Shown in pieces: positions 18,001-21,000 of a stretch of 64,000 nucleotides of DNA. The DNA is from Fimbriosthenelais zetlandica (Eukaryota). Position numbers: made by a program. The stretch spans positions 10,540,001-10,604,000 of the forward strand of contig OZ365118.1 of assembly GCA_977030845.1 (NCBI GenBank), written 5' to 3'. The first letter of the stretch is position 1. Every line of letters begins with the position of its first letter.

Positions 18001-21000
18001 ATCTATTGTCCAGACGCATGCATGTCGGTCTGTCAATACCGTTTCCATAAAACCAACTGGTTTGTGACTCTCCTAGAAAATAGTCCGGTATTTTGGCTTT
18101 GAAGGAAGGAGTTGAGGAGCAAAACAGAAATTAGCCATAGACTTAGCATTGCTAATTTTCCTTTTGAAATAGACCCCAGATTTCTGTTTTTTTCTTTTGT
18201 AAGAGGGCTATTATAATGTGAAACAGTACATACCATAGAAGGAAACCAATATATACTACTTCATGGCACTTACCTGCAAGAAAAAAGAAATGTCGATTAA
18301 TATCAAAACTGCAGCAGGAGAAATTAAACAACATAATGAATTGCTATAATAAATAGTGCAGTAGATCTACAAGAATACCCCCATAATTGATACGTTTTAG
18401 AGTCTGCCATCTTAATGGCCATTTTTCGTCTCCTTACAAATTAAATGACAATATTGGACATATCACATTCTTGAAGAAAACATTAATCTTTTTCTTTTAT
18501 ACCCAAGCCTATCCATCATCTCCACGGTGCCTCTTGGTAAATTGGTAGATTATTCAAGAAAGAAGTACCGACACGCAGTAATTAAATTATATGGACAATA
18601 AGAACCAGAGCCCTCGGTAATGGCAATCTTGGCTCTGTATAGGTTGCTAATCGGCAAAATCCATATTCAATCAGAAAGCGTTATATATTTATCTATTTCT
18701 CTGAACTCAATTCTTGCTGTATAAAATTCAAAGTTGTTTCTGGCAATTTAGTTTTAACTAAAAATGATTTAAAAATCATTTTATTTTATTTTGGCACACC
18801 ACAGTATCATATTAATTCTCGCCATAATGATAATTAATCAATATATGGACCCAGTATGCCACCTAGTAATGAAGGAAAACAATAAGTATGGGCAGAGCTC
18901 ATCAAATTATTTGTCTCCAATTAATCGTAGCTGTTGGCTGGTTGATTGATCGGACGGGAAAATGAGAGAAAGATATGGTCAGAGTTTTCTAATTAGTCAT
19001 ATCCCCCAAGACAAGTTTTTTGTAGTCGAAAATAACTGTTTTCTCCTCATGGATGCATACATATCTGTATCTTCCTAGTTATTCCCATTTCGTAGTTTGG
19101 TTTGGTTTGATCGAGATCTAACATTGCAGTAACAATGAAGGAACATGGCCAACTCTTCTATATATTGTTGCTTTACATGCCTCTCGACAGAAACAGTGCT
19201 TGGACGCATGGCTGGCCTTATAAATAGTAAGTAATTCTCTGCTATCAAGCGACACAAGTGTATTAATAATCATAGAAAAATTGCATTACATTTACAGTAA
19301 ATGTTTGTTTACAACTCAGTAAACTAGCTTAGTATGTTCAAAGCCTAAAAGGTGGATGATGGCAAGATGGCGAAATTCACTTACATCCATATAGCTCTAT
19401 AGCGTAGCTTGGTCCACCGGGCAATATGGCGGACCTATTTTAAGTTGATTATTCTATTAAGTATAGGGCCTCAACGATTAGGCTGGGGAGGGAAGTTATG
19501 CCGGGGCTTGTAATGGATGTTGAATCTCAGGAGGATATGTTTGAGTGGTGATGCAAGGAAGAATTGTTTCACTATTATGATTATAGAAAACTACACGATC
19601 ACCAAAAATACTTGTACTCCTTAAACATTGTGGACTGATATTTCACCCATAAAAATTGATGAAAGTGACCACTTTTAACATCGACCGTTCTGTGTAAGAA
19701 AAGATCATAGTTGTAACAGTGAAAGTTGTTACTTTCTTCTTGATTTCAAAAAAATAGTGTGTTTAAAAGTGAACCATGAGTTTTAGTGATTGTGTAGGTC
19801 CCTCTTCATTTTCCTATTCACTCTTGAAGCTTCATTGTATATGAACACAAGCCACCTTGAGGCATATTACCATCACAGAATCCTCCTTTCAGAGTATCTT
19901 AACACAGAGAAGATAAGTCCCTTACTGCTACAACTTCACTTCCTGCTTTATGCTAACGCATCTTTTGTTGCTTTTTCACATCCCTTGAATTTGTTTTTAT
20001 TATATATTAACTAACTTGATTTAGAGCCCAGAGAGTATTTTTAAAGCCCAGATTTCTTTCATTAAAGCATGTATCTTATATCTTATGAAGAAGAATGCTC
20101 TATTGCGTGTATATTAGTAAGAGGAACCTGTGGAGTGGAGGCGGAGCAGTAGTCAATCTAATATGGCTCACACTAGGAAGCAATCAAGCCAGAAAGATGT
20201 TCAGTTATGCACTTATTAGCATTCCCAGCATAGGCACTGCCAACAATCTGTTGTCCCATTGCTGAGGGACAAATGAGATGACCCGAGGGCGTCAGAGAGG
20301 GCTCATCTCCAGGCATTGTGTCCATCACATAGGGCACATCATGAAGGCTGATGGGTGCCTAACTGGCAAATGACATTATCTGGTCATAAAGCTCCCGTTC
20401 TCCAGCATTAAAGCCGGCTTATGGAGATCGAGGTATCAAGCAAATCACCTCATAACGCCCTCGCTTATCCCTGCTTCAATTATTGCTATATGACACTGGC
20501 CTCTGGCAGAATATTTCAAAATTTCCGAATGGACGTTTTCGCCTGATATTAAGTGAGACCTTTGGTTTAAGCAATAACAATTTTATTATTATGATGTTAC
20601 AATATCTTACTAAGATACAATATCTAAGATATTCAAATACCGCCAGATTTGTTTATAAATTGATGCATTTTCACCAGTTTATTAAATTATCATAAAAATC
20701 ACTGCCCAAAATTCATCATGCCTTCCGAGATGCACAACTATTATTTTGATACTGTATACTATATGAAGGGTAGAAGGCTGGTGAGAGAGAGCACACAATA
20801 AGGCTGAAAGCTTGTCTTGCACTCTACCATTCAATCCCCGAACCACTGACAGACTAGTCTGCCCTGAATTCCAACCACCGGATCTAATAAAAAGCCACCT
20901 CTCCATCCTCATGCCTCTTGCTCTGGAATATCAAGTTGGAGCTGCTCACATATGCTCCTGGTCAGAGGGGCGCTGATTACTGGCAGGCTGAGGCCTGGTG

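What the first reader, a model, noticed from the sequence alone, without database searches (positions are those of the whole stretch)
18268..18308. Textbook recursive splice site (ratchet point) on the minus strand
Branch-like TTAAT, uninterrupted T/C tract, 33-nt AG exclusion zone and CAG fused directly to GTAAGT, the optimal donor. Established: this zero-length-exon architecture defines recursive splicing in Drosophila long introns and vertebrate RS exons. It is the cleanest splice-type signal in the window and implies a long minus-strand intron; recursive splicing is little documented outside insects, nematodes and vertebrates.
Basis: partly seen in the sequence, partly recalled or inferred. 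Interest (0 to 1): 0.65.

Follow-up and report, generated by a model that had tools for sequence, protein, structure and literature searches.

The report
Unverified candidate recursive splice site
A short minus-strand stretch carries every sequence hallmark of a recursive splice site inside a long intron, but nothing available here can show that it is transcribed, used or conserved.

Summary
On the minus strand, TTAAT, a 13-nt T/C run, a 33-nt AG-free zone and CAG|GTAAGT lie at 18268-18308. It is the best donor-like site of 6,843 GT, the 10th best acceptor-like site of 7,884 AG and the top composite of 450 AGGT. Chance expectation is about 0.00-0.03 per window for this quality, and 0.11 by the laxest measure.

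TT sits at -5/-6. A weaker donor lies 40 nt downstream, bounding an out-of-frame cryptic exon. A second similar unit sits at 62115 on the same strand, with none on the plus strand. T>A skew is positive on the minus strand in 16 of 16 bins. None of 430 ORFs shows a credible protein domain, which fits a long intron or a gene desert.

No RNA data and no related eukaryotic genomes were available, so transcription, use and conservation are untested. The organism is unidentified; it does not look human.

Probabilities: recursive splice site 0.45, chance motif 0.33, edge of an ordinary small exon 0.17. If real, it is a new member of a known kind.

The parts
18309..18345 (-). Upstream pyrimidine-rich stretch ending in a second acceptor-like AG (18310-18309). 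With the GTAAGT donor it would bound a 35-nt exon (18308-18274).
   Evidence: Sequence. The acceptor scores 8.9 in the exon scan (row 18234-18308).
18296..18300 (-). Branch-point-like TTAAT. The candidate branch A lies 23-24 nt upstream of the junction.
   Evidence: Published ratchet-point branch points lie at -36 to -21 (Duff preprint). Its use cannot be tested here.
18278..18290 (-). Unbroken 13-nt T/C tract, with TT at positions -5 and -6.
   Evidence: 16 of 20 upstream bases are pyrimidines.
18274..18275 (-). Acceptor AG of the composite site.
   Evidence: Acceptor score 13.6, rank 10 of 7,884 AG. AG-free zone of 33 nt.
18268..18273 (-). GTAAGT donor fused to the AG. With the preceding CAG it is the full consensus donor.
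   Evidence: Donor score 12.6, rank 1 of 6,843 GT. It is the only CAGGTAAGT in the window.
18234..18273 (-). Putative cryptic 40-nt recursive-splicing exon. Its length is not a multiple of 3, and 2 of its 3 frames contain stops.
18228..18233 (-). Weaker downstream donor, ATG|GTATGT, 40 nt after the ratchet donor.
   Evidence: Score 6.9. The chance of a donor this good within +25 to +100 nt is 0.094-0.096.
62058..62135 (-). Second recursive-splicing-like unit on the same strand: a long pyrimidine tract, tttttAG|GTATGT (AG 62115-62114), a 50-nt interval (62113-62064), then the donor CACG|GTAAGC (62063-62058).
   Evidence: normalised score 0.819; AG-free zone 74 nt; downstream donor 9.4 is stronger than the ratchet donor 7.4.

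Best explanation
The site is a composite acceptor/donor element that is fully competent for recursive splicing. It most likely lies in a long intron transcribed from the minus strand.

Proposed course (inferred):
1. The pyrimidine tract and AG at 18275-18274 are recognised as a 3' splice site. The weaker donor 40 nt downstream (18233) helps by defining a cryptic 40-nt exon.
2. An upstream exon, outside or undetected within the window, is spliced to position 18273.
3. That join regenerates a 5' splice site whose intronic half is GTAAGT.
4. The regenerated donor is far stronger than the donor at 18233, so it wins. The 40-nt cryptic exon is removed together with the rest of the intron and leaves no trace in the mRNA.

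Shown here: the sequence anatomy, its rarity, and strand asymmetries consistent with minus-strand transcription. Inferred: transcription, actual use, order of events, and any selective value.
For: - Anatomy as described.
- Best donor of 6,843 GT, 10th best acceptor of 7,884 AG, top composite of 450 AGGT at 26.3 against 20.3 for the next.
- The exact IUPAC motif appeared in 0 of 100 shuffles. With up to 1 mismatch it appeared in 3 of 100.
- Normalised ratchet score 0.868. Pai et al. report that real fly sites generally score above 0.85 on their own matrix (passage). The expectation at this score on the minus strand is 0.011.
- TT at -5/-6. This holds for 196 of 197 fly ratchet points, but for only 25 of 115 pyrimidine-rich AG sites here.
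- Downstream donor at +40 that is weaker than the ratchet donor. The cryptic exon is 40 nt, out of frame, and has stops in 2 of 3 frames. This matches the cryptic-exon model: about 50 nt, poorly conserved, out of frame, with a weaker donor (Joseph et al.).
- A second unit of the same build at 62115. At a normalised score of 0.8 or more there are 2 sites on the minus strand and 0 on the plus strand, against 0.10-0.23 expected on the minus strand. Full units (acceptor, ratchet donor, downstream donor) number 2 on minus and 0 on plus.
- Ratchet-like composites favour the minus strand at every threshold: 84:47, 61:30, 29:12, 15:5, 8:2, 6:0.
- T>A skew on the minus strand is +3.8%, positive in 16 of 16 4-kb bins. 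After masking purine/pyrimidine tracts it is +2.8% (z 5.5), still 16 of 16. TA skew is positive along genes in all vertebrates studied by Polak et al. (passage).
- No credible Pfam domain in 430 ORFs, which fits a long intron.
Against: - No RNA evidence of any kind is available.
- Conservation could not be tested, because no eukaryotic genome collection is on hand.
- No flanking exon was found, so the window may be intergenic.
- The organism is unknown. If it is a vertebrate, ratchet-like motifs are not enriched on the sense strand (ratios 0.9-1.5) and recursive splicing is rare. In mouse brain, 19 of 84 junction-supported candidates were recursive sites and 46 were unannotated exons.
- The laxest chance estimate is 0.11 per window.
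- With up to 2 mismatches the IUPAC motif finds both units, but 13 of 100 shuffles also gave 2 or more matches. The 'pair' is therefore not robustly significant.
- My weight matrices were written from recalled frequencies, and some thresholds were chosen after seeing the data.
- GC skew is absent before masking (-0.4%) and only +1.1% (z 1.8) after it.
- A good acceptor 35 nt upstream allows an ordinary-exon reading.
Confidence: 0.45

Rival explanations
1. Chance juxtaposition. A pyrimidine-rich tract happens to end in CAG next to a GTAAGT, in DNA that is either not transcribed on this strand or where the site is not used or not selected.
For: - AGGTAAGT occurs about as often as chance predicts: 3 observed against 2.0 expected.
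- 1.2-1.5% of all AG sites have such a pyrimidine tract, so the expectation is 0.004-0.11 per window depending on the criterion. A scan of many windows will turn up such sites.
- The antisense background in every animal tested is 0.07-0.12 ratchet-like sites per 100 kb, and the vertebrate sense strand is no richer.
- In human, 3,022 of 1,674,568 predictor-passing intronic AGGT sites had RNA support (Bass and Salzberg preprint).
- No exon, homologue or RNA family anchors a gene here.
Against: - The exact motif appeared in 0 of 100 shuffles.
- The extra hallmarks were not used to find the site: TT at -5/-6 and the weaker donor at +40, which has a chance of about 0.095.
- A second unit lies on the same strand and none on the other.
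- There is a consistent minus-strand bias of composites and of T over A.
Confidence: 0.33
2. Edge of an ordinary small exon, for example of an untranslated region, a non-coding RNA or a poison exon, on the minus strand. Three layouts are possible:
- the donor of a 35-nt exon (18308-18274) that begins at the acceptor at 18309;
- the acceptor of a 40-nt exon (18273-18234) that merely begins with GTAAGT;
- a 75-nt exon (18308-18234).
For: - The acceptor-like AG at 18310-18309 scores 8.9, the donor at 18233 scores 6.9, and the 75-nt interval is open in one frame.
- In mouse brain, 46 of 84 AGGT candidates with junction reads were unannotated exons, against 19 recursive sites.
- The unit at 62115 has a downstream donor stronger than its ratchet donor (9.4 against 7.4). 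Under donor competition that predicts an included 50-nt exon. It shows that small exons on this strand are plausible.
Against: - An exon that begins with the perfect 6-nt donor, or whose last 20 nt are a pyrimidine tract plus CAG, is itself improbable unless selected for re-splicing.
- The 63-aa ORF spanning the site has no homologue and no Pfam domain.
- The 35- and 40-nt intervals are not multiples of 3.
- A perfect internal donor would be expected to pre-empt the 75-nt form.
Confidence: 0.17
3. An intronic U1-binding or decoy element. The perfect donor recruits U1 snRNP to protect a long transcript from premature cleavage, or to hold an intron, without productive splicing at this point.
For: The 9-nt CAGGTAAGT is the full complement of the U1 5' end; the pairing of AGGTAAGT with U1 is noted in the mouse paper (passage). 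Decoy exons and U1 protection of long transcripts are described in papers seen only as search-listing abstracts.
Against: It does not explain the fused strong acceptor, the TT at -5/-6 or the downstream weaker donor. It was not tested here.
Confidence: 0.05

Closest known systems
Drosophila intronic ratchet points (zero-nucleotide recursive splice sites; Ubx, kuz, luna and about 200-500 others)
   Same: - A prominent pyrimidine tract with TT at -5/-6.
- AG fused to GTAAGT.
- A branch-like A in the -36 to -21 range.
- A cryptic short exon with a weaker downstream donor.
- Location in a long stretch free of coding sequence.
- A second similar unit tens of kb away; fly segments measure 2.6-63.6 kb with a mean of 18 kb.
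   Different: The genome is not insect-like. CpG observed/expected is 0.46 across 64 kb with a TpG/CpA excess; that insect non-coding DNA is near 1 is recalled, not tested. Conservation, junction reads, lariats and saw-tooth coverage define the fly set, and none could be tested.
Vertebrate recursive splice sites with RS-exons (for example in CADM2, Lsamp, ANK3; Sibley et al. 2015, as described by others)
   Same: A YAG|GTAAGT core with a pyrimidine tract, a downstream competing donor, and a cryptic exon carrying stops. These sites lie in very long introns of long genes: introns over 51 kb and genes over 294 kb in mouse.
   Different: - No host gene was identified here.
- Known vertebrate sites are highly conserved and few: 20 in mouse brain.
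- Sibley et al. is not held in the library, so their criteria are second-hand.
- A 16-nt string across the junction is printed in none of the searchable papers.
Computationally predicted ratchet-like sites in large introns of non-insect invertebrates (sea urchin; Shepard et al. 2009)
   Same: A motif-only prediction on the presumed sense strand. Sea urchin has 0.54 such sites per 100 kb on the sense strand and 0.066 on the antisense strand. This window has 2 on the minus strand and 0 on the plus strand at a normalised score of 0.8 or more.
   Different: The scoring matrices differ, so the thresholds are not equivalent. The organism here is unknown. Neither case has RNA proof.
Unannotated cassette, micro- or poison exons and expressed RS-exons
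   Same: A strong acceptor and donors 35-75 nt apart. Out-of-frame short intervals with stops resemble poison exons.
   Different: A perfect donor directly at the acceptor is what defines a ratchet point, not an ordinary exon. Inclusion in mature RNA is untested.

Membership tests
Intronic ratchet point (zero-nucleotide recursive splice site) | [quoted passage not shown] | tested here: met
   CAG|GTAAGT at 18276-18268 on the minus strand. Top composite of 450 AGGT.
Intronic ratchet point (zero-nucleotide recursive splice site) | Prominent pyrimidine tract with TT at -5/-6 (196 of 197 fly sites) | tested here: met
   13-nt unbroken T/C run, 16 of 20 upstream bases pyrimidines, TT at -5/-6.
Intronic ratchet point (zero-nucleotide recursive splice site) | Strong regenerated donor (GTAAGT-like) that outcompetes the cryptic exon's donor | tested here: met
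   Donor score 12.6 (rank 1 of 6,843) against 6.9 for the donor at +40. The scores come from my own recalled matrices.
Intronic ratchet point (zero-nucleotide recursive splice site) | Short cryptic exon (about 50 nt) bounded by a downstream donor, poorly coding | tested here: met
   40 nt, not a multiple of 3, stops in 2 of 3 frames. A donor this good falls in that range by chance with probability about 0.095.
Intronic ratchet point (zero-nucleotide recursive splice site) | Branch point 21-36 nt upstream | tested here: inconclusive
   The TTAAT places an A at -23/-24. Use of a branch point needs lariat reads.
Intronic ratchet point (zero-nucleotide recursive splice site) | Lies on the sense strand of a long intron (over 11 kb in fly, over 51 kb in mouse) | tested here: inconclusive
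   For: none of 430 ORFs has a credible Pfam domain, T>A skew on the minus strand in 16 of 16 bins, and more acceptor-like sites on minus, 81 against 62. Against: no flanking exon was identified, so the region could be intergenic.
Intronic ratchet point (zero-nucleotide recursive splice site) | Motif conserved in related species well above its flanks | not testable with these tools
   No eukaryotic genome collection is available. The homologue search with the ORF across the site found nothing, which says nothing about DNA conservation.
Intronic ratchet point (zero-nucleotide recursive splice site) | Exon-to-ratchet junction reads, lariats from the ratchet donor, saw-tooth read density | not testable with these tools
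   No RNA data are available.
Ordinary cassette or micro-exon | Acceptor and donor bounding an interval that appears in mature RNA; for coding exons, an open frame with homology | tested here: inconclusive
   Acceptor at 18309 and donors at 18273 and 18233 give intervals of 35, 40 and 75 nt. There is no homologue or domain for the spanning ORF. Inclusion in RNA is untestable.

The most novel reading that the evidence does not exclude
The window is part of a single intron of more than 64 kb in an animal that is neither insect nor vertebrate and has CpG-depleted DNA. That intron is removed stepwise, Drosophila-style, at a series of ratchet units on the minus strand: 62115, then 18275, with segments of about 44 kb. 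This would be direct evidence that constitutive zero-nucleotide recursive splicing is a general metazoan way of handling long introns.
Probability: 0.15. Interest if true: 0.55.

Novelty: new member of a known kind. Interest (0 to 1): 0.32.

Why it matters
If the site is used, it marks a very long minus-strand intron in an unannotated stretch and gives a testable splicing intermediate. If the organism lies outside insects and vertebrates, it would extend RNA-level evidence for recursive splicing to a group where only motif enrichment has been reported (sea urchin; Shepard et al.). If the organism is a vertebrate, the site is one more candidate of a rare but well-described class. Either way it is a sequence-only prediction, and its value depends wholly on RNA and conservation data that were not available here.

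Tried and rejected
- **Whole-frame translation for Pfam.** I then searched ORFs one by one. ORFs were bundled only as rows of an alignment, so that the family tool could scan each row on its own.
- **Pfam results.**
  - 10 longest ORFs: nothing below E = 0.23.
  - 150 minus-strand ORFs of 50 aa or more: 1 marginal hit, DUF2093 at 5e-4.
  - 48 minus-strand ORFs of 50 aa or more plus 102 plus-strand ORFs of 63 aa or more: 0 hits.
  - 130 minus-strand ORFs of 40-49 aa: 2 marginal hits, NPP at 4.9e-4 and DUF2650 at 2.1e-3.
  - I treat all three hits as noise given the number of queries. I did not trace which ORFs gave them.
  - Not scanned: 23 low-entropy minus-strand ORFs, minus-strand ORFs under 40 aa, and plus-strand ORFs of 40 aa or more other than the 102 scanned (232 of 334).
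- **RNA families.** Rfam gave 0 hits at gathering threshold and 3 weak hits at E <= 1. There are no tRNA genes.
- **Homologues.** The search with the 63-aa ORF across the site found no candidate.
- **Exon scan.** A scan with my own matrices gave 74 candidates, none protein-like.
- **Possible promoter at 37.1-37.2 kb.** The TATA-like box, ATG and GTAAGT there are rejected as a promoter-plus-first-exon, because the box lies only about 30 nt from the donor.
- **Literature look-ups by sequence.** A 16-nt string across the junction gave 0 papers. Two strings from the short repeat gave 0 papers.
- **Literature search for other animals.** A search for recursive splicing in other invertebrates returned only off-topic papers, so I make no claim about what is in print there.
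- **Organism.** It could not be identified with the collections on hand.
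Full report
**What is there.** On the minus strand the window reads ...gatattaatcgacatttcttttttcttgCAG|GTAAGTgccatgaag....
- TTAAT lies at 18300-18296.
- An unbroken 13-nt T/C run lies at 18290-18278.
- The acceptor AG is at 18275-18274 and GTAAGT at 18273-18268.
- The nearest upstream AG is at 18310-18309, so the AG-free zone is 33 nt.

**How unusual it is.**
- AGGTAAGT occurs 3 times on the two strands, against a first-order Markov expectation of 2.0. Only this copy follows a pyrimidine tract: 16 of 20 bases, against 10 and 9 for the others.
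- Of 7,882 AG, 115 have at least 16 of 20 pyrimidines upstream, and 95 of those also have an AG-free zone of 20 nt or more.
- I wrote simple weight matrices from recalled metazoan splice-site frequencies, so they are heuristic. With them the site is the best donor-like GT of 6,843, the 10th best acceptor-like AG of 7,884, and the best composite of 450 AGGT at 26.3 against 20.3 for the next.
- Chance expectation per window, by method:

| Method | Expectation or result |
|---|---|
| Y12-N-Y-AG-GTRAGT, exact | 0 of 100 dinucleotide shuffles |
| Same pattern, up to 1 mismatch | mean 0.03; 3 of 100 shuffles |
| As good in both halves | 0.019 |
| Normalised score on the minus strand | 0.011 |
| Summed score only | 0.11 |

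The site is rare for one window. It is not rare for a whole genome or for a scan of many windows. It lies in no intra-window repeat.

- Duff et al. (preprint, whole text read) report the following for fly ratchet points:
  - TT at -5/-6 in 196 of 197 ratchet points;
  - branch points at -36 to -21;
  - host introns of 11-133 kb;
  - segments removed averaging 18 kb.
- Here -5/-6 is TT. That holds for only 25 of the 115 pyrimidine-rich AG sites of the window. The TTAAT puts an A at -23/-24.
- Joseph et al. (abstract, introduction and Fig. 1 legend read) describe each intronic ratchet point as having a cryptic exon of about 50 nt. It is poorly coding and out of frame, and it is bounded by a donor weaker than the ratchet donor.
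- Here ATG|GTATGT lies 40 nt downstream with score 6.9 against 12.6. The 40 nt are not a multiple of 3 and carry stops in 2 of 3 frames. A donor that good falls in the +25 to +100 range by chance with probability about 0.095.

**Surroundings.**
- The window has 39.5% G+C, no N, CpG observed/expected of 0.46 and a TpG/CpA excess of 1.22.
- I do not take it for human. CpG depletion is much milder than the human value I recall, about 0.2-0.25. The self-comparison shows no Alu-like high-copy family. AG/CT dinucleotide repeats outnumber AC/GT repeats 9 to 1.
- There are no Rfam families at gathering threshold, no tRNA genes, and only three weak Rfam matches.
- No ORF exceeds 161 aa, and the longest are low-complexity.
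- Pfam scans gave only three marginal hits, no more than expected from that many queries:

| ORFs scanned | Result |
|---|---|
| 10 longest ORFs | nothing below E = 0.23 |
| 150 minus-strand, 50 aa or more | 1 hit at 5e-4 |
| 48 minus-strand (50 aa or more) + 102 plus-strand (63 aa or more) | 0 hits |
| 130 minus-strand, 40-49 aa | 2 hits at 4.9e-4 and 2.1e-3 |

- Each ORF was searched on its own.
- The ORF that spans the site has no homologue in the large protein collection.
- The window therefore looks entirely non-coding, either a long intron or a gene desert.

**Which strand is transcribed.**
- T exceeds A on the minus strand by 3.8%, in 16 of 16 4-kb bins.
- After masking six purine/pyrimidine tracts the skew is 2.8% (z 5.5), still 16 of 16 bins, and G exceeds C by 1.1% (z 1.8). 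Before masking, the GC skew is nil.
- Polak et al. (passages) report positive TA skew along genes in all vertebrates they studied.
- Acceptor-like sites are commoner on the minus strand (81 against 62 above score 8). Donor-like sites are not (37 against 40).
- Ratchet-like composites favour the minus strand at every threshold: 84:47, 61:30, 29:12, 15:5, 8:2, 6:0.
- These asymmetries fit minus-strand transcription across the whole window. They are indirect, and they partly reflect one and the same compositional bias.

**A second unit.**
- At 62115 on the minus strand a long pyrimidine tract (AG-free zone 74 nt) ends in tttttAG|GTATGT. It is followed after 50 nt by CACG|GTAAGC.
- On a normalised ratchet score the two units reach 0.868 and 0.819, and no plus-strand site reaches 0.7.
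- The expected number at 0.8 or more on the minus strand is 0.10-0.23. That gives a Poisson probability of about 0.005-0.024 for two (my arithmetic).
- Against this, the cruder IUPAC pattern with up to 2 mismatches also finds both units, and 13 of 100 shuffles did as well.
- At 62115 the downstream donor is the stronger one (9.4 against 7.4). That unit therefore looks more like an included 50-nt exon or an expressed recursive-splicing exon.

**Base rates from the literature.**
- Shepard et al. (passages and Tables 2-4) counted ratchet-like sites per 100 kb of large introns:

| Group | Sites per 100 kb |
|---|---|
| Antisense strand, every species | 0.07-0.12 |
| Sense strand, vertebrates | 0.08-0.14 (sense/antisense ratio 0.9-1.5) |
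| Sense strand, sea urchin | 0.54 |
| Sense strand, four insects | 0.48-2.2 |

- In mouse brain (passages) only 19 of 84 junction-supported AGGT candidates were recursive sites, and 46 were unannotated exons. The real sites lie in introns over 51 kb and are highly conserved.
- A 2026 preprint (abstract and two sections) finds 3,022 human sites among 1,674,568 predictor-passing intronic AGGT.
- The weight of the motif therefore depends strongly on the organism. It is high in invertebrates that use ratchet points and modest in vertebrates. I could not determine the organism.

**Verdict.**
- Recursive splice site with a skipped 40-nt cryptic exon: 0.45. This rests on the rarity of the site, the extra hallmarks, the strand evidence and the second unit.
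- Chance motif without use: 0.33.
- Edge of an ordinary small exon: 0.17. The possible exons are 35 nt from the acceptor at 18309, 40 nt to the donor at 18233, or 75 nt.
- U1-binding or decoy element without productive splicing: 0.05.
The TATA-like box just upstream of 37128 is too close to serve as its promoter.

**What stayed unchecked.**
- Transcription, junctions, lariats, saw-tooth coverage and conservation.
- The identity of the organism and the host gene.
The open genome collection holds only bacteria and archaea, so it was not used.
- Supplementary files of the papers are closed. They hold the reference motif scores and site lists that would calibrate my thresholds.
- Sibley et al. 2015 was not available, so its criteria are cited second-hand.

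Noticed in passing
window 62058-62135, minus strand: A second recursive-splicing-like unit. A long pyrimidine tract (AG-free zone 74 nt) ends in AG|GTATGT, followed by a 50-nt interval and the strong donor CACG|GTAAGC. It could be a real 50-nt exon or an expressed recursive-splicing exon.
   Followed up: partly
whole window: Consistent strand asymmetry. T exceeds A on the minus strand in 16 of 16 4-kb bins. AGGT occurs 248 times on the minus strand and 202 on the plus strand. Five of six long purine/pyrimidine tracts have their pyrimidines on the minus strand: 5667-5967, 17348-17752, 24157-24299, 34012-34122 and 57327-57715. The tract at 2445-2589 is the exception.
   Followed up: partly
window 12977-13161, 22530-22618, 53252-53438: Three copies (78-89% identical) of an element of about 190 bp with inverted-repeat-like ends, which looks like a MITE. 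Most of its CpGs survive in the copies, although the window as a whole is CpG-depleted.
   Followed up: partly
window 1645-1700, 30700-30860, 32225-32274, 35515-35570, 39607-39657: A conserved core of about 40 nt is shared by at least five dispersed copies in both orientations. It is probably the core of a short non-autonomous element. The family was not identified, and two strings from it are found in no searchable paper.
   Followed up: partly
window 43500-44200: A patch with CpG observed/expected of about 0.9-0.95 in an otherwise depleted window. It has no ORF with a Pfam domain and no RNA family. It may be a young insertion or an unmethylated island.
   Followed up: no
window 37128-37165, minus strand: A TATA-like CATATAAATA is followed within about 30 nt by ATGGCGTCCCACAATG|GTAAGT. 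The box is too close to the donor to be its promoter.
   Followed up: partly
window 31970-32131, 51509-51637, 13545-13639, 1106-1168: Near-perfect minisatellites: 20 nt x 8.1, 42 nt x 3.1, 28 nt x 3.4 and 22 nt x 2.9. AG/CT dinucleotide repeats outnumber AC/GT repeats 9 to 1, which is unusual for a vertebrate as far as I recall.
   Followed up: no
window 18131-18181 and 40848-40897: A 51-nt match at 88% identity lies about 90 nt downstream of the site on the minus strand. It does not cover the site.
   Followed up: no
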